Below the pieces are notes generated by a model. It was not told the origin of the DNA and made no database searches. It saw only the letters and a program-made list of their open reading frames with translations. Positions 20,631 through 48,937 of a stretch of DNA of 64,000 nucleotides are shown one piece after another. Each line of letters opens with the position of its first letter. Position 1 is the first letter of the stretch. The stretch comes from the human T2T-CHM13v2.0 reference genome, Homo sapiens, in NCBI RefSeq assembly GCF_009914755.1, contig NC_060931.1; one strand, written 5' to 3'. Made by a program: the position numbers and the translations under genes.

Positions 20631-23222
<2,592 letters not shown>

Positions 23223-24266: not shown

Positions 24267-24589
<323 letters not shown>

Positions 24590-28250: not shown

Positions 28251-28669
28251 CAGATGTTAATGGTGGAAGTGCCAGCCTAGGCAAACCTAGGCAGGTGCAC
28301 TAGGTTGGAAACCGTGTCAGAAGCAATGTAGGAATGAGGATTAAAGCCACAGGTAAAGTCAGGTCAGAGGTCTTTGGAAAGTCTTTATGAAAATGGATGA
28401 GGTGTGGGCTTGGTACTGATACTTTGAAATGTTTACTTGCATCGTTCGTTCATCATTCTCAGGAAAAGCAGCAACCTGCAGCTGGGTTCTAAATAAGATT
28501 TCCAGTTTTGTCCAGTCCATCCCAGATGCACCCAGGTGCTCTCTTCCTTCAGAGGAAAGAAATATCTAGTCCATCAATCACTGCCCCCCTTCCAATATTT
28601 TAGGGTATGCCCTATTTTCCCATTAGTTCTTGGTTTAGGCTACTTCTTTCCCCTGCCCTTGGCTTCCTT

Positions 28670-29090
28670 TCTGTCGGGAGAATTGGCTCACCAAATTCCA
28701 CTTTTCCTACTGTGATTTTATTATAAAGATAGAAAAACCTAAGTGTTCATGTTCCCAGCCTTCAGTGTAGCTTCTGACGGTCACGTAACATAAATGTGCT
28801 CAGTCCAGCATTCACAGAACTCTGCTGCTGCCTCTCTTTCTATTCCTTCTTCCTGCTTGGAATGCAGATGTGATGTTAGAATTGGATCAGAGAAACTGTG
28901 ACTCTGGGGCCATGAACCCACCCACTTCACTCAGAGTTATGGGAAGCTTAATGTGAATGTGCTACATCGACCCTGGCTCAGCTGCCTCTGGGCTCCCTGG
29001 GAAGTGAGGGAAATACAGCCATATTTGTTAAGGGGAAAGTTGGAGTCGCTCTCGGCTCCACACAGCTGAAAGCATTATTAACTGATACAG
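28670..29090 (+). mobile_element. MLT1 (J/K-like) MaLR LTR
   Basis: tcccagccttc...ggtcacgtaac...ttcttcctgcttggaatgcagatgtgatg...cagctgaaagcattattaactgataca. Confidence 0.6.
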
Positions 29091-30631
29091 CCTTTTTCAT
29101 TCATAAATTATAAGGAAGGCATAATTGTCCTTACTTCACAGACATCTCATAGAATAGAAAAGCTAACTAAGCTGGTTTATCTTGGAACAAGATTGGAAAC
29201 TTGTTATCTGAAACTAAAGAGGTCATTTTCCACTCTAAGGTCAGTCCCAGTGCAAAGACCAGCAGTTGTTTTTGTTCTCTCTTTTGGAGATAAGGAAATT
29301 GTGGCACACAGAAGCTTTGAGTCTTGCAAGTACCATAAACCATGTTCTTTCTCTGCCTCTCTTCTGAATCTACTTCCTTGCCGTACCATTCTACTCAACA
29401 CAGCCAATCAGAATAAAGTCTTTGTCACTCTTTTAAGTCAAGAATCTACCTTAGATATCAGTGGGAATATTTTATTAAAAATACAGCACTAACAGTTACA
29501 GATTTTATCTATCTTTGAGGATTCTTTTGTGTATTATTTCTAAGGTATCAAAGAATAATGGGCCATTTCCCTAAAGGATATTTAGTATTTATTCTACTGT
29601 AAAAATTGCTAACACTGTTATTAAATATATCAGAAAATGTTTCCCTGTTTGACCACTGTTTTTGAATTGTGGCCATAGAATCATTAATTAGTTTTTAGGT
29701 ACTCAATATTTTATAATCTGTTCACTGAGCATGATAAAGTAATTAAAATGAATTAGACTGAGAAGCTACAGAGCAACAGATGTTAATACCGATTGTAAAT
29801 GACTGAAAGAAGCTGAGGAGCAAGCTGAGGAATTAAAGATGATTCTTTGATATGCATTTAGGATATGACACTTCTATAACCTCATTGAAGGGGATTCCAC
29901 TCCTTTATGCAAACGTGTCATTAAGAAGAGACCCCCTGGTCTCTGGAAGCCTCCAAGATCTCAATACTTCTCTGCATCCACATTTATTTTCCTTTTTTGA
30001 CTCTAGTATTCCTGTCTCTGTGACATCCTATTGTTTCCCAATTTAATTTCCATCTTGAATACTATTTCCTGATTTGATCTCTCATCTCTGCTGCCAATCC
30101 CCTGGATTCATGACTGCAGCTCATGCAAAAGCTCTCATCTCTTACCTGGAATTAGAAGAGGCACCCAAGCTCCTGCTGGGATCAGAGGGTGGGCCTTCTG
30201 TTACATATTGGAGACTAGAACAAGCAAGGATCTTGCCCTATGCTGACAGAGATCACATTTATTTTTAAATTTTGTGTCTGTATGTTTGTGATTCCATTTT
30301 ATTCCCATTTCTTTTAGGAGATATCTGCTAGCCATGAATTCACTTAGTTTTCTTTGACTGAGAAAGCCTTCATTATTTCTTTTTCACTTTTGCAGAATAT
30401 TTTTGCTCTATATATGACAGATTTTTGTGTTTATCTTTCTGTTTTATCTTTCTACACTTTAAGTATGCCATGCCATTGTCTCTTTGCTTGCATAATTTAT
30501 GATGAGAAGTCTGCTGTAATTCTTATCCTTGTTCCTCTGTGACTAGCATGATTTTTTTTTCCCACTTTCTTTGGAGATTTGCTTTTTGCCCTGGCTTCAG
30601 GGGAGTTTGAATAGGATATGGGGTGTGTGTT

Positions 30632-30635
<4 letters not shown>

Positions 30636-30671
<36 letters not shown>
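30636..30671. repeat. (GT)n microsatellite
   Basis: Direct observation. Confidence 0.95.
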
Positions 30672-30678
<7 letters not shown>

Positions 30679-32265
30679 TATTAATTCTGTTTTTTTTCCT
30701 CTAAACTCCTTAGGCCTGTAGTTTTGTTTATTGGTTTTAGAAAATTCTCAGTCATTATTTCTTCAATTTTTTTTATACTCCCTTCTCCTTTTCTTATTCT
30801 CAGAATGCAACTATGCATATGTTACACTATTTGATTGTGTCCCACAGTGTTGGGATGTTCTATTAGTGTTCTGGTTTTGTTTTTCATTTTTTTTCTCTTT
30901 GCTTCCAGTTTAGTAAGTTTCTATAAACCTATGTTTAAGTTTACTGATTCTTTCCTCAGCCATGTCCAGTCTACTAATGAGTCCATCAAAGGAATTTGTC
31001 ATTTCCATTGCTATATTTTTATTTCCAGTATTTCAATTTGATTTTTTCTTATAATTTCCATCTCTCTATTCAAATTATCCACCTGGCACTGAGTGTTGTC
31101 ATTTTGTCTAGCATTTCCATTGAAGCCGTTAACATGTTAAGCAGAGTTTTCTTTTTCAAATTCCTTGTCTGATAATTCCAGCCTCTGTGTCATGGCTCTG
31201 TCTAGTTCTAACAATTGCTTTGTCACTTTGAATGACTTTTTTTCTTGCTTTTTAATATTCCTTATAATTTTTTGGTTATAGCTAGACATGAAAAGAACAG
31301 CAGATATTAGATAAATTTTATATGTTGGGAGAAAAGCACAAGTTTCCTTGTGTGAGGCCTTAAATGTGGAGATGGATGTTCATCTGGTCAGAAGACAAGC
31401 TGCATTTGAAACTGTTTGTGCCATGGGCACCAGCGCTTTCTGGCCACTCCATTGGTGCCCTTTTTTGGCTCCCACTTGACTGAGTCTCCCCATGTGCCTC
31501 TTCACAGTTGTATTCCACTGCTACTTTTACTGCTGTTTTTTACAGTGGTGGTGGTCCTGGCTAAGAAGAAGGTTATCTGATGTTCACATTTAGCTAAAGA
31601 TTTTGGCACGTATCAAAACCTAAGTCCTGGACATGTAGCCTTCACAGCTATTCCTGTCCCTTTTCCTGGGATAAAAATTCTTCCTCATCTTATTGCTCCT
31701 CTTCTTTTTCCCAAATTGCAGTGGTTTTGAAGCCTTTTCTCCTGCAGATTGAGACTTTGGTTGCTTAGGGGAAACTGGGATTATGCTTCTGGTTGGAGAT
31801 TTGGTGGTGATCTCTATTTCCATCTTTCAGTTTAATAAATTAAACCAGTGTCTCAGGGTTAACTTTGATAATTTTCCCTCCAGATTAAGCCTTTTATCCA
31901 TGAAGTACATAGTTGGAAATAGTCTGGGTAGATTTGGCAGTGGCTGCTTCTTCCACCAACCCCAGCCAGCACTACAGTGTGTGTGGGGAAAGGAGTGAGG
32001 GATGAACTTTTTCTAGGTTCTTCTTTGTTCCCCTTTGTAAATGTTGGGTGAGTTCCTGGACAAAAAGCTCACAAGAGAGTGGAACTCTCTCCTAGGAATA
32101 CAGCCTTTGGAAGCTTCACATTCTCACACTAGCCCACCCGCAGCCTCCAAAAGTTCTATACAATTTTTAATTTTTGATTGGCTTATATAATATACAGTGG
32201 CTCCTGTTTCAGAAGAGAAAATGCTGGAGCCTTCTCTCCAGATGTCGGGATGTCACTTTTCCCTA

Positions 32266-32991
<726 letters not shown>

Positions 32992-34483
32992 TGCTACAAC
33001 CTCAGTTTTCTGATGGGTCCAAGAAAAGTCATTGATTTTCATTTTGCTCAGATTTCTTGTTGCTGTGGGGCAGATATAACGACTTCCCAGGTCTTTACAT
33101 GTCTGAGCTGAAACTGGAGTCCTTATATCAGTGGTAAAAATAAATACTCTACTTAATGTTATTCCATTTTACATTCAATGCAATCAAGGAAATTAAATTC
33201 TTATACAAGGAGCCTGACCGTGTTCCCATTGGAAAGAGTTTTATCTAGTAATTTCACTCTAGGTAGGTGATTAAATCACATGGGGACAAAGTGAGTGGGC
33301 TTATGCTGCACAGTGAATTAGTAAAAGAGCTTCAGATGAGCTGGATTTACATGGACTATTCCTATAACTTACAGCTTGGACACTTTTAGGCCGAACAAAG
33401 ACTACAACTCATATTCCGCTTTCAAGTTGTTATATTTTCCACAAATCATTTACCATTTAAATAATCATCTGCATATAAAATTGTTTACTTTAGCCCTCTC
33501 AAAATAGATAATTTGAAGCTAAAATACGAATTGTCATCCTCTGTAATTTAGAGAGCATTTTATATGACAATTAAATGCTGAGCATGGTTAGATGCTTTTG
33601 AGAATACACTGTACCATCCTGGTGGCTTATGAGCTTTAGGGGAGAATGACGCATAAATATGAGAGAATATCAAGAACTAAGAGATTCATAGAAGTGCTAA
33701 GTGCAGGCCCATTATGGAACATATCAGCTTACAGGCCAGACACTGAAATAATGGGATTATGATAGGTAAGAGTGTCCAGTCCAGGCCAGGTTATTTTAGA
33801 GGAATCATGAGAAGAGCCCACTCTGTCCTGGAGCCTACATGGATGGAATTTTTCTGAAACATTTCAAATAAAAGTAAAATAAGCAATCTATCAATTGCCA
33901 TTAAGTAACAGAAAATTTCTTTATATTTTCCAAAAGTATATCATTAGAGCTGGAATTTAGTAGGTGACCTATAATACTGGTGTTTCTGGTCAGCTATCCT
34001 GGCCAACCCCCAGTCTGCTTTTCTAACATGTAACATTAGCAGAGACCATCATTTATCCGGATCTGTGAAGCCTCCCAGAAGAGCCTGCAAGGTGAACAGC
34101 AGCCAAAAATCAGTGCTGTGGAAAAATGTGAGCTTCTACCTCACATGCCTCCTTTCCTGTTTCCTGCAGTGTTCAGAGATGGCTACTCAAGGTCATGGTT
34201 ACCCTCACACACAGATTCTGAAGGCTACTCTTGGCTACAATTCAGGTAATGTCCAACAGGGCAAAGTGAGAGACTAGTTTCTTGTCAATAATGATAATCT
34301 TTTTTAATACCTAACACCAAAACAGCAATCAATACCATATTGGACTTACTCACTCGCTGGGAATGTTCAGCTAGCTAAAGAGGGGTCTGGAATGAAGATT
34401 CAGAACAGTTTCAGGAACATATTTATTGGAGTGGCATTCAAATTATAAAACATTGTAAGTATTTGGAGGAGAAAACTTCAAGT

Positions 34484-34491
34484 TGTGTGTG

Positions 34492-34524
<33 letters not shown>
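34484..34524. repeat. (GT)n microsatellite
   Basis: Direct observation. Confidence 0.95.
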
Positions 34525-35360
34525 ATTGGAATTGAGGGAATATTAGAAATTCCTAACTTAGTAATTAAGCTTCTTAAGTTATTTTCACTGAAAAAGGAAA
34601 TCTCAGCCTTATAATTTTCAGCAGATCTAACCCCTAATTTAAATTCTTTGTCTATTTTTCTTCATTTTTTTTTTGATGAATGGCAGCCAAATCAATAGCA
34701 CTCAAGCTAATCTCACTGGTTATGTTCTTAAAGGAAATATATACCCAGAATACTTGCCAGGCGTGGCCTAAACAGCTACTATATGCATATTATTTCCAGA
34801 TTCTTAATGTGTCCCTTGCCCAGAGAAAGGCCTACTTTAGCCTTGTTACAGCTTATATCAAGGCCCAGTCTCAGAAATATTTCTTCATCTCAGAAATACT
34901 TTCATGACTCTGATTCTATGAGGAAAGACATCATGCAACATTCAGCCATTGTCAATATCACTTTTTTCTCTTTTTCTTGAACTTACGCAATGATGTTCAT
35001 AAATATCCATTTTCAATGTATCTATTGATCCATGAATACATTTCTGAAAGGTCATAGAAACTTGAAACTAACTTCTAAGGCTTTAGAACTTTCTTCTTTG
35101 CAAAGAACCAAATCTTGTTTATTTTTCATTCACATTAGATATTATAACACAGTCACATGAAATAAAGCAAAATGAGATGAAAAACAGTGTGCTAGTTACT
35201 ATCATTCTATCATTTAATACTCAACATAACTCTAGCATGTAGGCTATGCTATTTATAATTTCAAAATGAGGAGACAATTTCAAGTAGATGTAGTACATTG
35301 AAGTCACATGGTAAAGAGCAGAGGATTTGGGATTTATATGAAGATCTGTTAGCCTTAGAG

Positions 35361-35573
35361 CAGGGTATTCAAATTTTGCCTTCCCTGGGCCACATTATAA
35401 GAAGAAGAATTGTCTTGGGCCAAATATAAAATATATTAATCATAGCTAATGAGCTTTAAAAAAATTGCAAAAAATGTCATAATGTTTTAAGAAATTTACG
35501 AATCTGTGTTGGGCCGCATTCAAAGCTGTCCTGGCCCACATGCGGCCCGCGGGTTGTAGGTTGGACAAGCTTG
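35361..35573 (+). mobile_element. MER30 (hAT-Charlie MITE)
   Basis: cagggt...ttccctgggccacatt...gttgggccgcattcaaagc...ggttggacaagcttg, with a perfect 8-bp TSD ccttagag at 35353-35360 and 35574-35581. Confidence 0.92.
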
Positions 35574-36779
35574 CCTTAGAGCCTACGTATGTGAAGTAAA
35601 TTATATTCCATTAAAATCTTAAAGGAGTTTATCATAACTACCAGGAAAAATATTTCTAAAGAATCATATTTTCATAGATAAAACACTTAGTGCCATAGCA
35701 AGACCTGCTCATGATGACTGGACACTTCAGAGGCAAAGGAAACAAGCCTTGGTTTAGCCTTGTGCCCTTTCAGAGTGAGCCTTTCCACCCTCTTCTGATG
35801 GAAAAACTTCCACTCAAGCTTAACATCTCACTAAAGCATTACCTTTCCCCTGAAGACAGACAGGTGGTGGCTCTTTCCTCCATGTCCTCAGGATTAGGAC
35901 TGCTTGTAGAATATTTCTGCACCCCCAACACCTAGCTCAGATACGAGAACACAAAAGAAATGTGATAAGTATGTGAAAGAAGAAAAAAGGTGAGATGCTG
36001 ATCACTGCAAGCCTTGACAACAGTAGCCATATGCCATGACATCCATTTGTCAACAATTTATTTTCCTATTATTTTCTTATTTAAATTCCCCCTGTGTTAA
36101 TGAGAAGCACTTCAGTTAAGTGCTTAATAAACAAGCAATTACTTAATAGACATTAATGGCCTGCTGTATTATTGCCTGTAACATAAAGGGATAGTGAGAG
36201 GTACAAATAAAACCCAACATTTATACATCATCTTAAGGTATTAGAGAGTATTTTATAATATAGGCATTACTTGTTAAGCAATTGCGCACTTTGCTAATTG
36301 ATTTGGGGTGATGGATGAAAGATTAGCATAAATAACCCGTTTTTGAAGTAAACTAACATTAGCAAGGAAGCCACATGGCACTGGATTTTGACTAATTTGA
36401 TCAAGAAACAGTCTTCCTTTGTTCATTTATATATAAGTTTGCTAATTTGCCCAAACTAAGCTCAAGTCTAGAAAACAGTACTTCATAGTTGCAAGTAAAC
36501 CTGAGCGGGGCCTTCTTATCGTAATTGTTTCATTTTGCTTCACAGCTGAGTGTCTTTTCTTCTACTCAGGTGACCAGTTAATCCTGACAGAAGCTCCCAG
36601 CCCTCTGTAATTCAGCCCTGTCATCCTTGTGACGTGGATTACCTTTCTGGCTACAAATTGAATCATGGTGCCTCATCACAGTGTTGTTCTCCAAGCCTGG
36701 AAGGTATCCTCTGAACAGACAGCATGCCAACCCATGTCACCCTTGCCTTCTTCCCCCCACCTCTCATTACGGTATTGCA

Positions 36780-36920
36780 CAGAGATTGGACTGGAAGTCA
36801 GACAGATGTGGGCTGAAGCCCTGGCTCCCCTAACTGTGGAATGGTGCTGTTTTCTCAGTCTCTCTGGTCCTCAACTTCTCTTTATAAAATCGGTGGACAG
36901 TGGGAGCATATAATAATCTC
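36780..36920 (+). mobile_element. MIR fragment
   Basis: ggactggaagtcagacaga...ccctggctcc...tctctggtcctcaacttctctttataaaat. Confidence 0.6.
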
Positions 36921-37420
36921 AAGTACTTAAAAAAGTTTTAACTTCTTCTAAGCTCCTAGTAATTGCTTTTATTTCTCTTACAACATTTTAATTTTTTATC
37001 AAAATAACACATGTATGGAATTCAAAATGGAAACAAAACTAAAAAAGCAAAAAGACTTTTTCCATTCCACTTTTCCCACTGCCAAGGACAGACTCTGATC
37101 AATCCTCAGAAAGTCTCAAATTAGACTGTAACTTGGATAGCAAACAATGAAGAAGCTTAAAAGAAAGAGAAAAGTAAAAATATAAGGTAAGTTGGTAATT
37201 TAAGAAATGCATATAGGAAGTAATTTATCTCAAAATATATTCCACCACTCAGAAGCAGATAATATACATTTTATCCTAGAAATGTAACATAGGATATTGC
37301 TCTAATCCAAAACTACCCTGGGAAAATGAAAGGAGGTGGTGAGTGTGTGTGTGTTCAACAATGGTATCCTCATTTTGCATAGCAGCAAGTCAACAGACAA
37401 TTCTTAAAACTGAAAAACAG

Positions 37421-37852
<432 letters not shown>

Positions 37853-38013
37853 TTACCTAGTTTTTCAAAGCTGTTTATCACATTACAGCAGCTGTGCCCA
37901 ACTGGTCTCCTCTTTTCTCTCAAAGTCTTTATGTTTTTGTGTCTTTGCTGAATTGTTTAATTCTTTGCTGACGCTTTCTAGTTTTTGTTTTGTTTTGTTT
38001 TTTTTGCTGTGTA

Positions 38014-38285
38014 CAGTCATTCCTCTGTATCCATGAGTGATTGATTGGTTCCAGGACCCCTCTTGAATATCAACATATGAGGATGCTCAAGATTCTGATA
38101 AAAAATAGTGTAGTATTTGCATATAACTTATGCACATCTTCCTGTATACTTTAAATCATCTCTAGGTTACTTAGAATACCTAATACAATGTAAATAGTTG
38201 TTATACTATACTGGTTTCTTATATGTATTATTTTTATCGTATTGCTGTTTATTATTTTTTAATATTTTTCATCTGTGGTTGGTTG
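38014..38285 (+). mobile_element. MER2 (TcMar-Tigger)
   Basis: ta|cagtcattcctctgtatccatg...ttggttccaggaccc...gtagtatttgcatataac...actttaaatcatctctag. Confidence 0.8.
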
Positions 38286-38429
38286 CTTGTTGGAGCATTT
38301 TCAATTCACCTGCTTTAAAATCTTTGTTAGATAATTTTAATATTTGGTTCACCTTAAAGTTGGTATATATGGATTATCTTTTTTTCATTCAGGTTGAGAT
38401 ATCCAAATTTCCTTTTTGTATGGGGACCC

Positions 38430-38553
38430 AAGTCATATAAGATGATGGGCCCAACCTACTCCAGTATTCTTATACAGTCACATTCTGAAGTTCTGAGGAT
38501 CAAGACTTCAACACAGAAATCTGAAAGGAGGAACACAATTCAATTCCTAACAG
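38430..38553 (-). mobile_element. MLT1 (B/C/D-like) LTR fragment
   Basis: cagtcacattctgaagttctgagg...gacttcaaca...acacaattcaattcctaaca. Confidence 0.6.
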
Positions 38554-38937
38554 CAGTATAAATGGATCCCCTCTTTAGTATGATTTTTAGACTTTATAGG
38601 AAACATTCTCATTATTTCTCAGTTATTTTTGGCATAATGAATGAAGTTTCTTCTGAATGTGGCAAGAAGTGTGAACCACTTGGCTGCTCAAGCACAAATG
38701 GGGATTTGCAGGGAGAAGCTGGTGCTGTGGTCTCCATTTTCCTAAGAATGGTGCCAAGAATAAAAAGCAATGAAGGGTTTGTGATAAAAGAGTAAATAGT
38801 GTAAAGATGTTCAAACACTTCTAAGTAATAAATCTGTATTAAAATGAATATTTGTATTTCCTTAATTTCATTAATAATGAAACAAATGAAGAAAATTACC
38901 CATATGTTGAGTTCATACAATTTTTTAAAAAACACAT

Positions 38938-39092
38938 ATTTTGTTTTATTTTATTTTAAAACTTACTTGTATTTATTTATTTTTAAAGACAAGGTCTCAC
39001 TATGTTGCCCAGGATGGTCTTGAATTCCTGGGCTGAAGTGATTCTTTTACCTCAGTCTCTCAGATGGCTGGGACTACAAACATGTGCCTGGC
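38938..39092 (-). mobile_element. FLAM / Alu monomer
   Basis: agacaaggtctcactatgttgcccagg.tggtcttgaattcctgggct, with a TTTA-type tail. Confidence 0.8.
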
Positions 39093-40731
39093 AAAGATAT
39101 ACAATGTTTTCTACCAATTCTTCTCTATCCCTTCTTCCTGATAGAATACAAGCTTGAAGGCTAGAAGTGCGATGGTCCTCAGCTCATATTAAATTGACAA
39201 ACATTCCTGAAGTAGTAGTCATAGGCTTAGCTCTTAGCTAAAACAAAAAACAAAAGCAGAAACAGCAGCACATGCGTATGTGTTATATTTATTAACTGTG
39301 CAGTTTTAAAAGGTAGAGTTTTCTAATTAGTTGAAAAATTTCTTACTATATCAACAATACAAATGTGTTTAGAATTCATATTATGTCATTGTTATCATAA
39401 TTGGACCTCAGGAATGTAAACAGAAATGTATTTGGGAGAGGTACATATCGCTGCTGACCCTGTTGGGCTATTACATTCTTTTAGACTAGAAAATGTACAG
39501 GTGACACTAAGCCAGTGGCAGAGAAATTGGAAGATTTGTCGAGTGCTGTGACCCTACTCAATTCTTCATAATTTTTCTAGCAGCTCTCACGTTATTTTTA
39601 AAATTTAAAGTCCAGTTTTCACTACCAGATAATTTTGATTGACACTGGAGTGACAATGTCTGTTTTCTCAATGACACCTACTAGTTCTTACTCATTACTT
39701 GTCACTGGCATGAAGGGCAAGCAACTTAGTTAAACTGTTCATAGGCCTTACAAAGCTTGTCTTTTATTTTTATATGGAGGGGAAAAACAATCCTGGAGTG
39801 AAAATATGCCTTAATTTAAAGACGAATTAAGTGTCATAAACGGCTCATAAGCACAAACCTCCTGAATTGTTCTGACGCAAGAGGAGCAAATAAAAGAACC
39901 ACATGAAATCCCCACCTTAATCATTTTATTTTATGACAAATATCTTGCTTGAATTCCTGCATTTTCTTATATGCCAAATAATTTCCAGCTTGAAAAATAA
40001 CTAGAAGCCATAAAAGCATTTACTGTTGTATTATTTAATAAGTCATTTTACAACTCTTGTATTTCCCAAATCCAATATCCCTAATTTTTTTGTATTTTAA
40101 GTTATTTAAACTTCACAGCCATACAAGCAGATGTATCAGGTAAGCATGTGAGATGGTATGTTGAATATATTACCATACAGTATTTCTTTATGCAGAATTA
40201 CACATGGCAAATTCTCAGGTGCAGTGACCAAACAATCAAATAAGATGCAAGTACTCTGGGAACCACCAAGTTTGGACAGAGGATTGTAAGCTACAAAGTT
40301 AGGAAATGTAGGAGAATATTTACTTTACATAGAGGGAACAGAATGAGTATAAGCGCCAAAGCAAGTATAGCTTCTGGGAACGAGCTTATAGCTGGAGCTC
40401 AAACGAAAGGGAAGGGAGAAAGCCAGGCTGCAGAGGTGACTCCATGACTGATGCCATAGTTTCTCTTTCCCCAGGAGCATAAACAAGCAGCTGTGAGGAG
40501 CTGGGGATAATAATCTCACCATAAAATTCAGAGGAGATTCGGGATTGGATATGTATTTAGGGAAGAGTAACTAAAATAGACAAAAAATGAGGACTAGAAT
40601 TTAGGATGGGGGAAAGACTTAAAAGAATAAGACTAAGGGAAGAATAAGAGGTTTTAGAAAGAGATAAAGAATGGAGGCGACCCATTGAACAACTGGGTCA
40701 CCTAAAACACATCCATCTAAGGCATCCATAA

Positions 40732-41141
40732 TGTTGATCTGAAATAAAAGTCTAAGGCAAAATTAGCATAAGTAAAGAATTTGTTTTGGCCAAATTTGAG
40801 GAGTGTAACCCGGGAAACACATATGCAAACTACGTCAGAGAAGTGCTTTCAGCTGGGGAGGTTACAAGCAGATTTTTAAGGACAAAACGAAGAGGTATAC
40901 CAAGGTGGTCTCAGCCTGTTCATCCAGAAATACCATTGGTCAACAGAAAGGAGCTAACAGATGATTGGCTAAAGGCTACAGCACTTCTTGGAATAGTCAT
41001 TATCAGTTTGTGATGAAACCAGCTCCTGGAATTCTTATAAGTAAAAAGGTACAGGAATTTCAGGGGAGTAACTGTGGCATCATGACAACCCTGTTTGGTC
41101 ATTGTAATTTAGTTATCCTCATTTGTTGGGTTTTGTTTTCA
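40732..41141 (-). mobile_element. ERV1 solo LTR (MER31/MER67-like)
   Basis: TG...CA termini with a 4-bp TSD ataa at 40728-40731 and 41142-41145. The segment aaggcaaaatta...ttggccaaatttgagga...aacccggga resembles MER31-type LTRs; the family assignment is uncertain. Confidence 0.7.
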
Positions 41142-43234
41142 ATAAGCATGACCAGTGAGAACCTCCCCTTTTGTTTGATCCAACCTTACAGAATAGCTTA
41201 CTTTTCCACACAGCCTTGACTCTGTAAAGTTTAGACGATCTTGGAGGCAATTAGTAGACTGCTCTTTAAACCTTCCTCTAGTTGTCTGTATATCCCACCT
41301 TATGCAGAAATGGTGGTCAAAATGGTAGCTAATTTGGGTGAGAAAATAAAACTTTCTCCATGCCCAACACCCTCCACACACATTGGAGTTCAACATTAAA
41401 GGTAGAAGGAGCAAAAGGGAATCAACAATGAAAAATAAATAACCTCTCTGAGAAAAGTAGAGCCCTTTACTTTCCTCCCACAGAGAAGCGGCCATGGACA
41501 TATCTTTTCAGATGTGTCAAAAGAGTCTGTTCCTGTGGTTACCTGAATAACAAAGACCTAGGCAGAAATCATTGAGTTGTAGATACAAACACTCTCAGAC
41601 TAGCCAGACAATTGCAGGAGGACTGGGGAAGGAAGAATAAGATAGTATCTCCGGAACTTAAGGAGAAGATCTCTTGAGAAGCAGATGCCAATAACTAGAG
41701 GGAAACCACCTCAGGCTGAAAGGTAGATAACAGTCTCCATCGTCTCTGGTGCCACGTGGTCAATCATTGTTGTTTCTCTCTAGGAGTCTGCTTTATTATT
41801 TTTTCTTAGAAGCATGGCCTTCTCAGCTTACCTTTCACTTATTTCAGATATGGCTACCCAGATTAAATTTTACATGAGCATTTCACTCGGGGACCCCAAA
41901 GAGAATAAGGAGGGGCTCTGGGACTCAAGTTTACCTCATAGAAGAAGGGATCTGAGTGGCCCAACCTGGATGAAGTGACTTTTCTAATCAGTTGTCTTTA
42001 GGATTTTTAAAATTATTATAAACAGGGGTCTAAGTGTTCATGGATAGTGTGGTGACTATACAAGCAAATTCCAAGAGCAAGACTGTCTCATATGAAAAGT
42101 CGCATTTCTTAGCAAGAACCAGGTCTCTAGCAAAGAGCAAACATTCAGTAAATTGTTTCTGAATCTATTAATAAATGATAAGAAAAGGCAAGGGAAATCA
42201 ACATCCTCACTGCATGCCTTCAGACGTGTGTTTCCTATCAGATACGGGTATTCCAACAGAAACTGGAGAAAAGAAAATACAATGCATTCACTGGACAGAA
42301 ATATTGTGGACGGGGGGCAAGCATTGGGACAGTGGTGAACAAAATTATTCTTGAGGTCCCCATTAATCAAAATATTTGTGGCATCCAGAAGCTTGAATCT
42401 TTAAGGACAAATATGAATCTTTACCCATCTTCTTTTACTCTTCTCTCCTTTCTCCTAAACTAACTCTAATATATACATTTACTTTTAAAATTTCATAAAG
42501 CCTATCTAATTGGGAATTTAGGTCTCACTCCTTGTGGACACCAGAAGGATATAAATGATTAGGGGAAATCCCACCAAACAGAAAGGGCAAGAAGATGTAT
42601 GAATGAGTAGTAAGCTCAAGAACAACCCATCAGTCCTCTTCTTTATTTTACCCCCAACCCAAAACTTAGGGATGAAGCTTCACGAAGCTCTCTTTGGTGA
42701 AGGAGAGAGGCCTGTTCCGTTGCCAAGGAGTGCAAAGCTGCACATTGGCTTTGGGATGACATTGGGTATAAAATTTATCACTTGTGATATCCCTGTGTGA
42801 TCTTCTACACACATTGTTTAGCTTCTCCAAGACTTTTCTTTGGAAAGCCCACATAGAACAGAAAAAAGAAATGCCATCTTTTAAACTATCTATTTAACTA
42901 TCTTGTGGCCCCATGTTTCCAAGGTTGGGGTATTGGGAGAGTTGGTGAAAGAGCAATATGTCAACATTAACTTGTCTCCAAGCAGGCATGACTTTCAATA
43001 TCAAATGGTCACAACCTCCAACTTCTAATGGATCCTAAATGAGTGCTTCAAAAATACTGTCATTTGGTAATAAAGTCATACTCGAAGTAACACTTATTTG
43101 GCTGAATTTCCAGAGACTGGAGAGAAGGTTAAGATCCAGGTGGTTGCTATGACAAGAGCATGATGACTTATTCATCCAACACTTTGTTGATGTCAGTATG
43201 ATATAGACCTTCGGCTCATGGTTTAAAAAAGCAA

Positions 43235-43620
43235 AGGGAGGGCGGTTGCGGGAGGGAGCGGGGCAGGCGTTGTGGGCCAGGCCCCTCCTCTGGCTCCTGC
43301 AGCACCGCCTCTTTTCGGGCTCCGCCGGCTCCCGCCGTCCCTGCAATGCCGCTCTGTGCCCGCCGTCCTGAGAGCCCGCGCGGCACTGGCGCCAGCCTTG
43401 GCGGCGCGCGCGGGGCCGTGGTCGTTGCTCCCTGACTGGCCGCGGCCGCCTCCAGGAAGCGGAAAAGCAAGGGGCGGTCGAGCTGGCCGCCGCGCCCCAC
43501 TGCTCGCCGCGCTGCTCTTTGACCTCGCCGGGTGTGAAGAAGATGCGCAGCTCCACGCTGCAGGACCCGCGCCGCCGGGACCCCCAGGACGACGTTTACG
43601 TGGACATCACCGATCGCCTT
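43235..43620 (+). promoter_or_regulatory. CpG-rich island (retrocopied CDC14B 5' leader) with GC boxes; candidate promoter of CDC14C
   Basis: Abrupt switch from AT-rich flank to GC/CpG-rich sequence at ~43235; gggagggcggttgcgggagggagcggggc. It is the only CpG island in the window. Confidence 0.65.
43346..43435 (+). other. Upstream ORF, 29 aa ([29 protein letters not shown]), in the CDC14C leader
   Basis: ATG 43346-43348 to TGA 43433-43435, read directly; whether it is translated is unknown. Confidence 0.45.
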
Positions 43621-44886
43621 CGTTTTGCCATTCTCTACAGCAGACCAAAGAGTGCATCAAATGTACATTATTTCAGCATAGATAATGAACTCGAATATGA
43701 GAACTTCTCCGAAGACTTTGGACCACTCAATCTGGCAATGGTTTACAGATATTGTTGCAAGATAAATAAGAAATTAAAGTCCATTACAATGTTAAGGAAG
43801 AAAATTGTTCATTTTACTGGCTCTGATCAGAGAAAACAAGCAAATGCTGCCTTCCTTGTTGGATGCTACATGGTTATATACTTGGGGAGAACCCCAGAAG
43901 CAGCATATAGAATATTAATCTTTGGAGATACACCCTATATTCCTTTCAGAGATGCTGCCTATGGAAGCTGCAATTTCTACATTACACTTCTTGACTGTTT
44001 TCATGCAGTAAAGAAGGCAATGCAATATGGCTTCCTTAATTTCAACTCATTTAACCTTGATGAATATGAACACTATGAAAAAGCAGAAAACGGAGATTTA
44101 AATTGGATAATACCAGACCGATTTATTGCCTTCTGTGGACCTCATTCAAGAGCCAGACTTGAAAGTGGTTACCACCAACATTCTCCCGAGACTTATATTC
44201 AATATTTTAAGAATCACAATGTTACTACCATTATTCGTCTGAATAAAAGGATGTATGATGCCAAACGCTTTACAGATGCTGGCTTCGATCACCATGATCT
44301 TTTCTTTGCGGATGGCAGCACCCCTACTGATGCCATTGTCAAAAGATTTCTGGATATCTGTGAAAATGCTGAGGGTGCCATTGCAGTACATTGTAAAGCT
44401 GGCCTTGGTCGCACAGGCACTCTGATAGCCTGCTACATCATGAAGCATTACAGGATGACAGCAGCCGAGACCATTGCGTGGGTAAGGATCTGCAGACCTG
44501 GCTTGGTGATCGGGCCTCAGCAGCAGTTTTTGGTGATGAAGCAAACAAGCCTCTGGCTGGAAGGGGACTATTTTCGTCAGAGGTTAAAGGGGCAGGAGAA
44601 TGGACAACACAGAGCAGCCTTCTCCAAACTTCTCTCTGGTGTTGATGACATTTCCATAAATGGGGTCGAGAATCAAGACCAGCAAGAACCCAAACCTTAC
44701 GGTGATGACGACGAAATCAATGGAGTGACACAAGGTGATAGAAGTCGGGCCCTGAAAAGGCGAAGACAATCAAAAACAAACGATATTCTTCTCCCATCTC
44801 CCCTGGCTGTGCTGACCTTTACACTGTGTAGTGTTGTCATCTGGTGGATTGTTTGTGACTACATTCTTCCCATCCTGCTATTCTGA
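43543..44886 (+). CDS. CDC14C: Dual-specificity protein phosphatase CDC14C (CDC14Bretro), intronless retrogene, 447 aa
   Basis: Uninterrupted ORF similar to CDC14B over both DSP-fold domains: [14 protein letters not shown], general-acid loop FFADGSTP and catalytic [10 protein letters not shown] (Cys codon 44392-44394). No introns. The first in-frame ATG is 43543 (A at -3) and the frame is closed upstream by TGA at 43369. The C-terminal tail is hydrophobic. Confidence 0.93.
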
Positions 44887-47800
44887 CTCAAAGATTTCAG
44901 AACATAGTAGCCATCAGGACCCCCTGACAGATAGCTGCTTCTCTCCATTTCAAGGACTAAAATGGTTTTGCATTAAGTAAAAACCTGTGACCAGAACTGA
45001 AGGAAGACTCTAGGAACTGAAAACTGCAACAGAAATTAGCACAATTTGAAAACAAAACAAAATTGCAAAAGACTTAGTTGCTTTCCACCTAAGAAGCTAA
45101 TCAATGGAGAAAATGTCCACTGGGGTTTCAGTAATGAACTTTTGAGTTTGGGTGCAAGCAAATGTACCAAGACCAGCTCAGTCAGGGAGACCCTACCCCA
45201 GTGGTGCTAGAGGAATTAAAGACACACACACAGAAATACAGAGGTGTAAAGTGGGAAATCAGGGGTCTCACAGCCTTCAGAGCTGAGAGACCCGAACAGA
45301 GATTTACCCACATATTGATTAACAGCAAACAAGTCATTAGCATTGTTTCTATAGATATTAAATTAACTAAAAGTATCCCTTATGGGAAACGAAGGGATGG
45401 CCCTAATTAAAGGCATAGGTTGGGCTAGTTAACTGCGGCAGGAGCACGTCCTTAAGGCACAGATGGCTCATGCTATTGTTTGTGGCTTAAGAATGCCTTT
45501 AAGCAGTTTTCCACTCTGGGCTGGGTGGGCCAGGTGTTCCTTGCCCTCATTCCGGTAAACCCACACCCTTCCAGCGTGGGCATTAGGGCCATTATGAACA
45601 TGATACTGTGCTGCAGAGATTTTATTTATGGCCAGTTTTGGGGCCAGTTTATGGCTGGATTTTGGGGGGCTTGCTCCCAAAAAGAATGACTCAAAGAAAG
45701 GCCCAGCTCTCAAGCTGAATGACAAAAATGCTGTTGTAAATTTAGTCTCAGGTGTAAATACCCAAGCCCTCTGGTACTCAGGGAGCTGGCTGGTCTGTGG
45801 TGCATGTGTGTCCTTGTGATGGCAAGCATTGTAGTTGATGGCCTTCAGAAGAATTGAGGATCTGATGGAGGTTTTTTAATGTATTTATTTTCTGTTCAGC
45901 TTGTGACCCTGTGTCAAAATTTGTAAAGATACAAAAGGCATTACTGAAATGGTACTTTCTGTAATTTGATACTATTTGGCTTTACCATCTTCAGTTGACT
46001 GTTTGTAATACTGTAGTAATATTAACTCTGATAAGTACCCAAGCTGCTTGTCTTCTACCAAAGAGTGCTTTATTAACAAGAATCTGTGAAAACCACATTT
46101 AAACACTGTTGCATGTTGTAATACCAGGTGATACCTTGGTAACCTAAAACTTGCAAGAGAATATTAGTGGTAGCTTTAGAAGACTCAGGAGGAGAAACTG
46201 ACTTCAGAGCTGGAAGATGTTGCAAGTCATTCCTTTTTCTGTCCTTTAGGGACTGAAGAACTGGGAGGTTGCCCATTGTTTGGTTGCCAGTCATACAAAT
46301 TAAAATCATATTTCCTTCCATGCATGGAAAAAACACACTATTGGTTTTTCGCCTTGGAAACAGCAATCCCAAATAATGTCGGCTTTAAAAAAAAAAAGTT
46401 ACCGCTTTTTTAGAGTCCTTCTCTGTAATATTGGATTTTTTTTTCCTTATGAGATCAGCCTAAGGCCATTGATAAGGCCTGTGATCTCAGTAACAATGAT
46501 CTGCTTCTGAATCTCACTGTTGCCTTTGGCTAGGGAACACAACTAGTAACTCTGCAGAGTGCCTTCTCCCGCAACCCTACTGGAACACAGCAGAGTCTGT
46601 GCCATGAAGAAATTAGAGAAACAGAATTGTTTCGCTGCTAAAAAAAAAAGGGGGGGCCCAAAATAAAAGAATATTTAGTACTCACCTCAGTTCCTTCCAT
46701 AAGAAGTGGGTGGTTTAATGATTGTTAACCCATTTTTGCCTGTGCTGGGAGCATGGAGGGCTGAGATGTTGACAGGCAGTGGGAAACAAATGCCCTCCTA
46801 AGTCACAAGGCGTGCGCCAGATCAGGAGGCAACTCCATTTTAAGAAGCTGCCTTTTTCATAAAACTGTAAGAAACCAAAGCAGTTGGAATAAACAAGTTA
46901 AAGTCTTTAATGCAAAAAGTAATTGAAAGGCAGTGCCTCCATTTTGGTGTACTTTCTTGGAAGAAAGTACGAAATTGACCGGCATCAGGAGAGACGGAAG
47001 ATGCCGTATTCTCAGCCAAACAAGTGACTCTTTCCCTGCCAAGCACTACGGGGTGGGGTCAGGCTAGCTTTTAAACACTGGGGACTGGATCACAGAAAAA
47101 CAGTGGTTTTCTGTCCCTGGAAATGAATAGGCACAAAGACCCACTTGGCTGTGGGAAGACCACTCTTCAATAAGATTTTGGTGGGAGGAGGAACATTCCT
47201 TTTGCTATTTTAAGCTGAGACAATACAAATATTTAAACTGTGCCATGCATAAAGCATTGAATTCTCAGGGCACTTCTTCTTCCCCTTACCCTTTTTAAGG
47301 CCATCCCCTTCATAAATAATAATCTAGGTAGTTGTGAAAATTGTGCTTCCATCTGATTCCTTCTTAGTTTGGCTTTTCATCCCATCAGAACAAGTAAATG
47401 TGGGTGCCACAGCTTTTGTGAGTACTGTCTCCCTCACGGTGAACAAGCCTCCTGGTGTTTCGTCCGAGAAAGGGAAGGGTGTTGGTGGAACCACAGTCCT
47501 TTTTCATTTTATAAACTGCCTCTTCATGTTGCCTGCTCAAGTTTCCACCTAGAATTGCTATCACTGTGACTCTTTCTAAAAATCCTTCTGTTTAACTGGT
47601 TCACTGAAATTAGTCATAGAAAATTTGTGATTTGGTGAAGAAACATTCCTTGTAATAATCAAATGACTTGGGATGGTGTGCATAGCAACAGTGTTACACT
47701 TACGGGGACCGTCTCTAGACTTATGGGGACCATCTCTAGAATCCAAGAAGTCTCTGGGTCTGAGGGATGGAAAGTTCTTCCTGCTATGAATGAGAGTGGA

Positions 47801-48318
47801 CTCTTCCCCTCACCCCCAACTAAAACCACAAACACCCAGAATCTTCTGGGATTAGAGTCCTTGTTATAGAAGACCTTGTTGCTATGGAACATGAAACTGT
47901 GTCTGTCAGATAGATTCCCTTAAGAGCCTTAAATAGCCCTGAAAGTACACCGGGACAGTTTGCGATGGAATTAAAATTAGAAGTGAATATTTTTAGGTGC
48001 CCTTGAAGCTTTCTGGGGACTCAAAATTATCAAGAGTCAAGGACAGTCTGGAGGAAGAGCATCTGCAAAACTGGGTTCCTGGAAGTAGGGACGGACGTGG
48101 CTTTTTGTAGAACTTAGTGGAGAGCAGCTCCTCATGAGAGCAGAATGGCCTGGCGTGGCCAGTGCTTCCCGGCAGCACGCGGGTCTGCCGGCCTCCAGAA
48201 TTTCCCCGTTCTGAGCTTGATGCCCCTAGCCTGTTCCCTACCTACTTCCTCCCTTCCCCTCTAGCCCTCTCACAGGGGTGATTGCTACCTCTCTCTTTTC
48301 TTGGGCCTAGGCAAGTTT
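44887..48318 (+). other. Retrocopied CDC14B-type 3' UTR (interrupted by MER9)
   Basis: Contiguous non-repetitive sequence after the stop codon that rejoins across the MER9 (…gcaagcaaatg|…aatgactca…) and ends abruptly at an MLT2. Identity of the distal part with the CDC14B UTR is from recollection and should be confirmed by BLAST. Confidence 0.6.
45165..45682 (-). mobile_element. MER9 solo LTR of HERV-K(HML-3), antisense to CDC14C
   Basis: Reverse complement begins ..TTGGGAGCAAGCCCCCCAAAATCCAGCCATAAACTGGCCCCAAAACTGGCCATAAATAAAATCTCTGCAGCAC and ends ...GAGCTGGTCTTGGTA; ~518 bp. Flanks caaatg / agaatg form a degenerate TSD. Confidence 0.9.
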
Positions 48319-48937
48319 TCATGTGACAACTTAACTGGATCATAGGGTGCCTGGATACTTGGTCAAACATCATTCTAGGGGTATCTGTGAGGGCATTTGT
48401 GGATGTGATTAACATTGGATTCAGTAGACTGAGTAGAACAGATTGCCCTTCCTCGGGTGGGTGTACAGCATCATCTACTCGGGTGAAGACCTGAATAGAA
48501 CAAAAAGTTGAAGGAAGGATGAATTCACTCTCCTCTTTGCCTGAAGGCTTGAGCTGGAACATTGGTCTTCTGCTGCCTTCAGACTGGAAATTACAACATT
48601 GATGCCCCTGATTCTTGGGCCCTTAAACTCAGACTGGGATTATGCAACTGGTTTTCTTGGGTCTCCAACATGCAGCGATCAAATTACAGGATTTCTCAGC
48701 ATCCATAATCACGTGAGCCTATTCCTTATGATAAATATCTTCCTATAGATTGTGTATATAGATACAGATATATGATATCTGTTATATTCTATCTACATAG
48801 TGTGAAAGCATATGTATCTTTAGATCTATATCTATATGTATGTATGTATGTATGTAGGTAGGTGTCTATCTATCTATCTAATCTACCTACCAATCATCTA
48901 TTTTATTGATTCTGTTTTTCTGGAGAAACTTGGCTAG
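48316..48937 (+). mobile_element. MLT2 (D/B-like) ERVL LTR, missing its first ~12 nt
   Basis: atgtgacaacttaactgga...ggtcaaacatcattct...cagtagactgagta...attctgtttttctggagaa, with the internal TA/TCTA tract typical of MLT2. Confidence 0.85.

What the first reader, a model, noticed from the sequence alone, without database searches (positions are those of the whole stretch)
43543..44886. Intact, intronless CDC14 phosphatase retrogene (CDC14C/CDC14Bretro): a young gene in a repeat desert
Seen: a 447-codon ORF without stops or frameshifts, with catalytic Cys/Arg (HCKAGLGR) and the general-acid Asp (FADG) intact, flanked by parental UTRs. The GDI2 retrocopy 20 kb away is full of lesions. Established: CDC14Bretro was described as a hominoid-specific retrogene from a CDC14B splice variant, expressed in brain and testis, that shifted from microtubules to the ER in African apes under positive selection (Rosso et al. 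2008, cited from memory). It is often annotated as a pseudogene, and I know of no established substrates. This is the main biological system in the window. It is not wholly new, but its function appears open.
Basis: partly seen in the sequence, partly recalled or inferred. Interest (0 to 1): 0.85.

Follow-up and report, generated by a model that had tools for sequence, protein, structure and literature searches.

The report
CDC14C retrogene inside an inverted duplication
This is the already described human CDC14C (CDC14Bretro) phosphatase retrogene, intact as reported, but it appears older than published, sits in a duplicated copy of its original insertion, and carries a conserved membrane-anchor tail.

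Summary
Window 43543-44886 (+) is an open 447-codon frame with both CDC14 domains, HCKAGLGR and FADG. It aligns without gaps to the solved CDC14B core, differing at 11 of 348 residues. It is the published CDC14Bretro/CDC14C gene (Rosso 2008), so the finding itself is already known.

Four additions came from the genome and protein searches.
1. The frame matches 13 separate CDC14B exons on contig 9, which shows retroposition directly.
2. The gene lies in one arm of a 24-kb inverted segmental duplication (window 24286-48319, K2P 0.017). Only the other arm (CDC14BL) keeps the last 831 bp of 3'UTR, the A-tail and the second copy of a 15-bp target-site duplication. CDC14C is therefore most likely the derived copy.
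3. Four Old World monkey "CDC14C" protein models group with ape CDC14C (support 99/93), and their 5' exons map upstream in this window. This argues against "hominoid-specific".
4. The protein ends in a strongly hydrophobic helix conserved from bird to human. The 2008 paper does not discuss it, and it is a candidate ER tail anchor.

Substrates remain unknown.

The parts
43543..44886 (+). CDC14C coding sequence, 447 codons plus TGA
   Evidence: It matches 13 separate CDC14B exons on contig 9.
44389..44412 (+). Catalytic P-loop HCKAGLGR (residues 283-290). The general-acid loop FADG is residues 255-258 (44305-44316).
   Evidence: These residues are identical to the CDC14B chain and invariant in alignment A1.
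44782..44883 (+). C-terminal hydrophobic tail (residues 414-447), a candidate tail-anchor transmembrane helix
   Evidence: The best 19-residue Kyte-Doolittle mean is 2.20 at residues 428-446, against a maximum of 1.02 elsewhere. AlphaFold2 predicts a helix at 420-446 with pLDDT 73-84. The tail is conserved in CDC14B isoforms from bird to human.
43225..43239 (+). 5' copy of the target-site duplication AAAAAAGCAAAGGGA
   Evidence: It occurs once in the window. The same 15-mer is at the 5' junction and after the A-tail of the CDC14BL copy (C7 minus strand, 49009254-68 and 49003064-78).
43241..43542 (+). Parental exon-1 remnant: 5'UTR plus decayed N-terminal coding sequence. It forms part of a retained CpG island (43236-43620).
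   Evidence: Homology to parental exon 1 starts at 43241. GC is 0.73 and CpG o/e 0.95, with 49 CpGs, against 0.19 for the whole window. The RefSeq transcript start at 43418 lies inside it (hub table).
43454..43456 (+). Lost parental start codon (ATG to AGG). It creates a CAG|G acceptor-like site. A 1-nt deletion near 43484 follows. The new ATG at 43543 replaces the Ile of KKIR.
   Evidence: Three-way alignment with the parent and CDC14BL; translations; Rosso 2008 section 6.
44887..48319 (+). Parental 3'UTR-derived sequence, truncated at 48319. RefSeq ends the mRNA at 46324, after an ATTAAA at 46299.
   Evidence: Homology to C9:108675567-108672709; polyadenylation signal scan.
45165..45684 (.). 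Dispersed repeat of about 520 bp inserted into the 3'UTR after retroposition. It is absent from the parent and present in CDC14BL.
   Evidence: The parental match is contiguous across the gap. The first look found 1185 candidates, of which 40 were scored, and the repeat copies among these are 90-93% identical.
24286..48319 (.). One arm of an inverted segmental duplication. Its partner is C7:49003940-49027862, which holds CDC14BL.
   Evidence: Seven megablast blocks at 95.8-98.5% identity. K2P is 0.0172 over 23569 aligned sites.
38637..38776 (+). Upstream exon-like segment 1 (ATG, 46 codons, then a GT). It is used as the first coding exon in gibbon and Old World monkey CDC14C models.
   Evidence: tblastn gives 81-94% identity to 6 of 6 such models; sequence. 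Only those 6 proteins carry it.
42249..42334 (+). Upstream exon-like segment 2 (AG acceptor, GT donor)
   Evidence: tblastn; sequence. In human, splicing it to the CAG|G at 43455 would give a frame that stops at TGA 43519-43521. This is an inference.
20651..22901 (-). GDI2P1, the broken GDI2 retrocopy. It is the neighbour used as a contrast and lies outside the duplication.

Best explanation
The ORF is the known gene CDC14C (CDC14Bretro).

Origin. An L1-type retrocopy of a spliced CDC14B mRNA (the 'par' isoform, whose last coding exon encodes a hydrophobic tail) inserted on chromosome 7. The insertion carried a 15-bp target-site duplication. The retrocopy brought part of the parental CpG island with it, and the RefSeq transcript now starts there.

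Protein. It keeps every catalytic residue of a CDC14-type, proline-directed phosphoserine phosphatase, and it has evolved under purifying selection.

Three points are inferred here beyond the literature:
(a) The insertion predates the split of apes and Old World monkeys (about 80% likely).
(b) The intact human gene is the derived arm of a 24-kb inverted segmental duplication roughly 5-10 My old. The original insertion survives as the broken CDC14BL (about 80% likely).

Steps shown: ORF, domains, exon-by-exon origin, duplication, target-site duplication, selection ratios.
Steps inferred: promoter use, membrane anchoring, enzymatic activity, substrates.
For: Identity and intactness.

Processed origin:
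- The ORF maps to 13 exons at C9:108687481-108791063, with a unique GT/AG cut at 10 of 12 junctions and two candidate cuts at the other 2.
- A 14th exon supplies the 3'UTR.

Selection:
- Retrocopy versus parent differ at 51 of 1341 nt and 23 of 447 aa. dN is 0.024, dS 0.08-0.10 and the ratio 0.25-0.32. The core ratio is 0.17.
- Since the duplication, the CDC14C lineage has 3 nonsynonymous and 4 synonymous changes and no lesion.
- Over the same time the CDC14BL lineage has 6 nonsynonymous and 2 synonymous changes, a +1 frameshift and a 231-bp insertion.
- Simulated neutral survival of the ORF is 1-2% at 25-30 My.
- Rosso 2008 reports ratios of 0.25-0.37 in apes.

(a) Age:
- 8 of 8 CDC14C rows (4 apes, 4 Old World monkeys) share R27, E57 and L321. 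None of the 11 CDC14B rows does.
- They form one clade with support 99/93, nested among catarrhine CDC14B (21 of 22 rows used, Nomascus left out).
- Macaca nemestrina has a separate parental-type CDC14B.
- The monkeys' first two coding exons map to window 38637 and 42249.
- Retro-parent 3'UTR K2P is 0.059.

(b) Duplication. CDC14BL alone continues 831 bp further along the parental 3'UTR, to ATTAAA, an A-rich tail and the second target-site copy.

(c) Tail anchor:
- Kyte-Doolittle mean 2.20 at residues 428-446 of 447, with no other hydrophobic segment.
- Predicted helix at 420-446.
- The tail is near-invariant from bird to human.
- Rosso 2008 found ER localisation, screened only for N-terminal signals, and saw a tail-less parental isoform go to the nucleus.

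CpG island.
Against: (a) Age:
[quoted passage not shown] They state that empty sites had the expected size (passages). I cannot explain that result.
- The four monkey proteins are computational gene models.
- I could not examine any monkey DNA.

(b) Duplication:
- A duplication that once extended further, followed by a deletion in the window copy, would give the same picture.
- CDC14BL shares three human-only states (L6, G387, S401) that chimpanzee CDC14C lacks, yet it lacks P131, which chimpanzee has. Gene conversion or a reversal has therefore blurred the lineage counts and the dating.
- Divergence varies from 0.7% to 3.2% between 2-kb bins.

(c) Tail anchor:
- The parental isoform has nearly the same tail, yet was seen on microtubules.
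- All published constructs carried C-terminal fluorescent tags.
- The AlphaFold2 model is poor overall (mean pLDDT 60).

General: the lineage N:S contrast (3:4 versus 6:2) rests on 15 sites and is not statistically significant. I saw no protein-level, population or activity data.
Confidence: 0.75

Rival explanations
1. The published model stands unchanged. A retrogene born in the hominoid ancestor 18-25 Mya moved to the ER in African apes because 12 selected substitutions gave it new binding partners on the ER surface. A membrane anchor plays no part, and the locus is a simple single-copy insertion.
For: Rosso 2008, sections 6 and 16, reports:
- 12 nonsynonymous and 0 synonymous changes on the African-ape branch;
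- resurrected proteins before and after that branch differ in localisation;
- chimeras show that the termini and the core both matter.

Marques 2005 used PCR dating with an African green monkey. The parental isoform carries almost the same tail but was seen on microtubules.
Against: - Four Old World monkey CDC14C models share three derived residues and two upstream exons with the ape gene.
- The locus is demonstrably duplicated, and only CDC14BL has the A-tail and the second target-site copy.
- The paper does not discuss the C-terminal hydrophobic segment or any transmembrane anchor in the protein. In its text, 'transmembrane' occurs once (in the reference list) and 'anchor' never.
Confidence: 0.15
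2. The microtubule-to-ER shift is the unmasking of an ancestral anchor. The CDC14B par isoform and the early retrogene were already tail-anchored ER proteins that also bound microtubules, so the ER aligned on them. African-ape CDC14C lost the microtubule binding (N-terminal truncation, changes in the core and tail flank) and kept the anchor.
For: - The tail is conserved from bird to human and sits at the extreme C-terminus in every sequence examined.
- Removing the C-terminal domain sends the parental isoform to the nucleus.
- The hydrophobic core barely changed in African apes (best 19-residue mean 2.39 to 2.20). What changed is the loss of the final CL(D/K/N)GFRT residues through a new stop, plus flank changes.
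- The new Met removes 30 N-terminal residues, including the Ile of KKIR.
Against: No experiment addresses membrane integration of any isoform. The microtubule co-localisation and nocodazole protection were read by the authors as direct binding. C-terminal tags may have altered the behaviour of all constructs.
Confidence: 0.35
3. CDC14C is an expressed relic: a transcribed retrocopy whose frame is open by luck and which makes no functional protein in humans.
For: - It has been annotated as a pseudogene.
- The parental start codon is lost and a 1-nt deletion shifts the old N-terminal frame.
- If the upstream exons are spliced in, they would create an upstream ORF ending 22 nt before the ATG (inference).
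- Human and chimpanzee proteins differ at 7 of 447 residues, which is fairly high.
- I saw no proteomic evidence.
Against: - The ratio is 0.25-0.32 against the parent and 0.17 in the core.
- Intact full-length orthologues exist in 8 other catarrhine models.
- Neutral survival of the frame is 1-2% for a single lineage.
- The paralogous copy CDC14BL picked up two disabling lesions over the same time.
- The CpG island is retained.
Confidence: 0.08

Closest known systems
CDC14Bretro / CDC14C as described by Rosso et al. 2008 (PMC2422853) and Marques et al. 2005 (PMC1251493, there called CDC14B2)
   Same: It is the same gene. The ORF, the new Met at parental position 31 that breaks KKIR, the lost parental ATG, the intact catalytic sites and origin from the 'par' splice form all match. 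The human+chimpanzee-only residues I find (1, 120, 131, 268, 384, 401, 406, 414, 418, 419, 426, 427) number 12, matching the paper's count. They include its three core substitutions.
   Different: - Old World monkey orthologues argue against 'hominoid-specific'.
- The studied copy is the truncated arm of an inverted duplication.
- The African-ape form also lost its last residues through a new stop.
- The hydrophobic tail is not discussed in the paper.
CDC14B, the parental gene (solved core 1ohc/1ohd/1ohe)
   Same: Same two-domain fold and P-loop. 337 of 348 core residues are identical. The same alternative last coding exon encodes the hydrophobic tail.
   Different: - No introns.
- The N-terminal 30 residues are missing.
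- Changes occur at positions invariant in 10 or 11 of the 11 placental CDC14B rows: C27R, Y56S, A57E, S321L.
- The C-terminus is shorter.
- Expression is restricted to brain and testis, per Rosso 2008.
Tail-anchored ER phosphatases such as PTP1B (recalled from general knowledge, not from any call)
   Same: A cytosol-facing phosphatase domain, a disordered linker and a single hydrophobic helix at the very C-terminus. No N-terminal signal is present.
   Different: The catalytic family is unrelated within the PTP superfold. Anchoring of CDC14C is untested. The tail contains an Asp (D439).
CDC14BL, the paralogous pseudogene at C7:49007375-49008948 (-)
   Same: It differs from the CDC14C ORF at 15 of 1342 aligned sites. 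It has the same repeat insertion in the 3'UTR, the same lost ATG, new ATG and new stop.
   Different: - It is broken by a 231-bp L1-like insertion and a +1 frameshift.
- It keeps the full 3'UTR, A-tail and 3' target-site copy.
- It lacks the 1-nt deletion near 43484 and has S131.

Membership tests
CDC14 subfamily of dual-specificity phosphatases | N-terminal DSPn (A) domain followed by a DSPc (B) catalytic domain | tested here: met
   PF14671 at 22-159 (E 1.9e-56) and PF00782 at 238-329 (E 1.8e-15).
CDC14 subfamily of dual-specificity phosphatases | P-loop HCxxGxxR with the catalytic Cys and Arg, and a general-acid Asp | tested here: met
   HCKAGLGR at residue 283 and FADG at residue 255. Both are identical to CDC14B chain 1ohc_A and invariant in A1.
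CDC14 subfamily of dual-specificity phosphatases | Phosphatase activity on Cdk-type pSer-Pro sites | not testable with these tools
   Inferred from 97% identity to the solved CDC14B core. I saw no assay of CDC14C in the papers I read.
Processed (L1-mediated) retrogene | Colinear with a spliced parental mRNA, introns absent, on a different chromosome | tested here: met
   13 coding exons plus one 3'UTR exon of contig 9 are contiguous in the window on contig 7.
Processed (L1-mediated) retrogene | 3' poly(A) tail and flanking target-site duplications | tested here: inconclusive
   The window copy has only the 5' target-site copy (43225-43239). Its 3' end is cut at 48319. The A-tail and the 3' copy exist at the paralogous CDC14BL locus. 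The feature is met for the original insertion but not for this copy.
Hominoid-specific gene | Absent from Old World monkeys | tested here: not met
   CDC14C models from Macaca nemestrina, Mandrillus, Rhinopithecus and Colobus share three derived residues and two upstream exons with the ape gene, and they form one clade with it. This is protein-level evidence only and conflicts with the PCR result in Marques 2005.
Segmental duplication pair | At least 1 kb at 90% identity or more elsewhere in the same genome | tested here: met
   About 24 kb, inverted, with 23569 aligned sites and K2P 0.0172. The arms are separated by about 38.4 kb.
Tail-anchored membrane protein | A single hydrophobic helix within about 30 residues of the C-terminus and no other membrane or signal segment | tested here: met
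   Kyte-Doolittle mean 2.20 at residues 428-446 of 447, against a best value of 1.02 elsewhere. Predicted helix at 420-446. Rosso 2008 found no N-terminal signal with four programs.
Tail-anchored membrane protein | Post-translational insertion with the N-terminus in the cytosol | not testable with these tools
   Only the ER co-localisation of C-terminally tagged protein is published.

The most novel reading that the evidence does not exclude
A textbook case of 'adaptive subcellular relocalisation of a hominoid-specific retrogene' needs rewriting on three counts.
1. The retrogene is catarrhine in age.
2. The functional human gene is a duplicated, 3'-truncated copy, while the original insertion has decayed into CDC14BL.
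3. The ER address comes from an ancient tail anchor, conserved from bird to human and encoded by an alternative CDC14B exon. The African-ape burst of substitutions then removed microtubule binding and did not create ER targeting.

This would also imply that vertebrate CDC14B itself has a membrane-anchored isoform.
Probability: 0.3. Interest if true: 0.6.

Novelty: already known. Interest (0 to 1): 0.5.

Why it matters
CDC14C is one of the few primate-restricted genes with experimental evidence for a new cellular role, and reviews cite it as a model of neofunctionalisation.

If the gene is older and sits in a duplication, three things follow:
- The dating, the branch tests and the ancestral reconstructions should be redone with monkey sequences and with gene conversion in mind.
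- Primers and short reads may confuse CDC14C with CDC14BL, since the ORFs differ at only 15 of 1342 sites.
[quoted passage not shown] A membrane-bound CDC14B isoform also becomes worth testing.

None of this changes the basic fact that the gene is known.

Tried and rejected
- A target-site duplication next to the A-run at 46385-46396: rejected. Parental homology runs through that A-run to 48319.
- A palindrome reaching the centre of symmetry inside the window: rejected. The window has no long inverted self-match, and the duplication stops at 24286.
- An ungapped comparison of CDC14BL with the ORF gave a false block of differences in the first 195 nt. A gapped alignment corrected it and showed a +1 insertion.
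- CpG decay as a sign that CDC14BL is silenced: no difference (49 versus 47 CpGs).
I scanned open pieces instead.
- Literature searches:
  - 'CDC14BL' appears in 0 papers.
  - 'CDC14B' with 'tail-anchored' appears in 1 paper, judged unrelated from its listing title only and not opened.
  - 'CDC14C' with 'transmembrane' and 'endoplasmic reticulum' appears in 2 papers. I opened one (passages), which only lists the gene; the other was seen as a listing only.
  - 'CDC14C' with 'mass spectrometry' appears in 6 papers, none of which looks from its listing to be about human CDC14C protein. None was opened for this.
- I could not compute branch dN/dS across apes, population loss-of-function counts or proteomics. 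No ape or monkey DNA, variant data or spectra are held.
- The PDF supplements of Rosso 2008 and Marques 2005 (trees, Table S1 of dated retrocopies) could not be seen. They may show how the monkey site was scored.
Full report
**1. The observation**

Window 43543-44886 (+) is an uninterrupted 447-codon ORF. It carries the two Pfam domains of CDC14 phosphatases: DSPn at 22-159 and DSPc at 238-329. The P-loop HCKAGLGR is at residue 283 and the acid loop FADG at 255. Residues 9-356 align without a gap to the crystallised CDC14B core (1ohc_A), with 11 of 348 differences.

One frame holds 40 stops, and the GDI profile is scattered over four open pieces.

**2. What is known**

I read sections 6, 16 and 26 of Rosso et al. 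2008 (PMC2422853) and passages of Marques et al. 2005 (PMC1251493). They describe this gene as CDC14Bretro (earlier "CDC14B2"). Their account is:
- It is a retrocopy of a CDC14B splice form, "CDC14Bpar".
- It arose in the hominoid ancestor 18-25 Mya.
- It is expressed in brain and testis.
- The African-ape branch has 12 nonsynonymous and 0 synonymous changes.
- A new Met at parental position 31 breaks the KKIR motif.
- The protein shifted from microtubules to the ER.

Later papers add little:
- A 2018 paper says the role of CDC14C is unknown (passage).
- A 2024 review calls it exclusive to hominids (passage).
- A 2012 siRNA screen lists it among phosphatases affecting ERK phosphorylation and autophagosomes (passages).

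**3. Retroposition shown directly**

The window's own genome could be searched. The ORF matches 13 separate exons on contig 9 (C9:108687481-108791063, minus strand) at 90-100% identity. Ten of the 12 junctions have a unique GT/AG cut, and two have two candidate cuts.

Homology to parental exon 1 begins at window 43241. That is two bases after a 15-mer, AAAAAAGCAAAGGGA, at 43225-43239. A further parental exon supplies the 3'UTR from 44940 onward. It is interrupted at about 45165-45684 by a ~520-bp dispersed repeat that the parent lacks.

The 5' flank of the ORF is not only UTR. A three-way alignment (translations) shows three changes:
- the parental ATG changed to AGG (43454-43456);
- a 1-nt deletion near 43484;
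- ATC changed to ATG at 43543.

The retrocopy kept a CpG island (43236-43620: GC 0.73, CpG o/e 0.95, against 0.19 for the window). The RefSeq transcript start at 43418 lies inside it. Use of the inherited island as promoter is an inference.

**4. An inverted segmental duplication**

Window 24286-48319 matches C7:49027862-49003940 in inverted orientation, in seven blocks at 95.8-98.5% identity. K2P is 0.0172 over 23569 sites, or 0.0134 without CpG sites. The partner arm holds the pseudogene CDC14BL. Its ORF differs at 15 of 1342 aligned sites. It is broken by a 231-bp L1-like insertion replacing ORF nt 451-452 and by a +1 A after the equivalent of 43736.

Both the duplication and the homology to the parent end at the same base in the window, 48319. 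The CDC14BL arm goes on matching the parental 3'UTR for another 831 bp. It then shows ATTAAA, an A-rich tail and the same 15-mer as at the 5' junction.

The simplest reading is that the CDC14BL site is the original insertion, and the intact gene in the window is a 3'-truncated duplicate that now uses an internal ATTAAA at 46299. A wider duplication followed by a deletion in the window copy cannot be excluded with human data alone.

The copies diverge by 1.7%. I recall human-chimpanzee divergence as about 1.2% and human-gorilla as about 1.6%. That places the duplication roughly 5-10 Mya. Two things make the date soft:
- Divergence ranges from 0.7% to 3.2% between 2-kb bins.
- CDC14BL shares three human-only residues (L6, G387, S401) but lacks P131, which chimpanzee has. 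This points to gene conversion.

No paper in the library contains "CDC14BL".

**5. Selection**

Against the parental coding sequence rebuilt from the exons:
- 51 of 1341 nt and 23 of 447 aa differ;
- dN is 0.024 and dS 0.08-0.10;
- the ratio is 0.25-0.32 overall, 0.17 in the core and 0.40 in the C-terminal part.

I polarised the differences between the two chromosome-7 copies using the parent. The CDC14C lineage has 3 nonsynonymous changes (L20V, S131P, K347R) and 4 synonymous changes, with no lesion. The CDC14BL lineage has 6 nonsynonymous and 2 synonymous changes and two disabling lesions. The direction fits constraint on CDC14C, but the numbers are small and conversion may distort them.

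A neutral simulation leaves the frame open in 1.9% of runs at 25 My and 0.96% at 30 My.

**6. Age**

A protein search with the C-terminal 91 residues returned 63 hits among 155 candidates. Among them are "CDC14C" models from four Old World monkeys: Macaca nemestrina, Mandrillus, Rhinopithecus and Colobus. Evidence that these are orthologues of the ape gene:
- All 8 CDC14C rows (4 apes, 4 monkeys) have R27, E57 and L321. None of the 11 CDC14B rows does.
- The monkeys share four changes of their own: Y32N, A204T, H211P and T244M.
- Macaca also has a normal CDC14B.
- A likelihood tree of 21 rows (Nomascus left out because its model is partly misbuilt) puts the 8 CDC14C rows in one clade with support 99/93. 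That clade sits inside catarrhine CDC14B, with New World monkey CDC14B outside at 82/84.
- The gibbon and monkey models start with two extra coding exons that map to window 38637-38776 and 42249-42334 at 81-94% identity. This ties them to this locus. Only those six proteins carry that exon.
- The retro-parent 3'UTR distance of 0.059 is about what I recall for two human-lineage copies separated since the ape-monkey split.

This contradicts "hominoid-specific". It also contradicts the paper's remark that African green monkey cells have no endogenous copy. The contrary PCR result of Marques 2005 remains unexplained, and I could not check monkey DNA.

**7. The tail**

The protein ends in [34 protein letters not shown].
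- The best 19-residue Kyte-Doolittle mean is 2.20 at 428-446 of 447. Nothing elsewhere exceeds 1.02.
- AlphaFold2 on a 13-row alignment gives a poor model overall (mean pLDDT 60). It does predict a helix at 420-446 with pLDDT 73-84, after a disordered stretch at 354-418.
- The same exon in human CDC14B, and in isoforms from marsupial and bird, encodes nearly the same segment followed by CLDGFRT(Q).
- Human and chimpanzee CDC14C end at a new stop that removes those residues. They also changed TSA to TFT and TC to PS.

Rosso 2008 screened only for N-terminal signals and used only C-terminal tags. The paper does not mention a transmembrane segment in the protein. It reports that the parental isoform without its C-terminal domain goes to the nucleus.

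I therefore propose a tail anchor as the ER address (about 55% likely). A bolder version is that the anchor is ancestral and African apes lost microtubule binding (about 35% likely). Against both, the parental isoform with the same tail was seen on microtubules. Database entries may already mark this helix automatically, which I could not check.

**8. Verdict**

The gene is real, intact and already known. Its substrates are still unknown. The added value here is a revised natural history (older origin, a duplicated locus, a derived functional copy) and a testable anchoring mechanism.

Noticed in passing
window 24286-48319 and C7:49003940-49027862: There is a 24-kb inverted segmental duplication with arms about 38.4 kb apart. 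The edge at 24286 lies at the T-rich end of an Alu in both copies, which suggests Alu-mediated rearrangement.
   Followed up: yes
L016, C7:49008267-49008497: A 231-bp insertion resembling an L1 3' region, with a T-rich leader, replaces two bases of the CDC14BL ORF. A +1 A lies further upstream.
   Followed up: partly
window 45165-45684: A dispersed repeat of about 520 bp sits inside the 3'UTR. The first look found 1185 genomic candidates, of which 40 were scored; the repeat copies among these are 90-93% identical. It was inserted after retroposition but before the duplication. No family name was assigned.
   Followed up: partly
window 38637-38776 and 42249-42334: Two exon-like segments have an ATG and GT/AG signals. 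They are coding exons of the gibbon and Old World monkey CDC14C models. Their identity to human is no higher than I would expect under neutrality, so constraint is not shown.
   Followed up: partly
window 43449-43521: The ATG-to-AGG change creates a CAG|G acceptor-like site. If the upstream exons splice there in human, the frame ends at TGA 43519-43521, 22 nt before the main ATG. That would be an upstream ORF of roughly 100 codons.
   Followed up: partly
CDC14BL versus window ORF codons 6, 131, 387, 401: CDC14BL shares the human-only residues L6, G387 and S401 with CDC14C but keeps the ancestral S131. This pattern needs gene conversion or a reversal.
   Followed up: partly
window 24000-48400 in 2-kb bins: Divergence between the duplication arms ranges from 0.7% (bin 30000) to 3.2% (bin 24000). 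This is patchy enough to suggest conversion tracts.
   Followed up: no
proteins P0032 (sheep) and P0038 (dog): Other CDC14B isoforms end in a different, long hydrophobic C-terminal stretch. More than one CDC14B splice form may therefore carry a membrane-type tail.
   Followed up: no
window 20651-22901 (-): GDI2P1 lies just outside the duplicated segment. It is split into at least four open pieces with a frame change before the last piece.
   Followed up: yes
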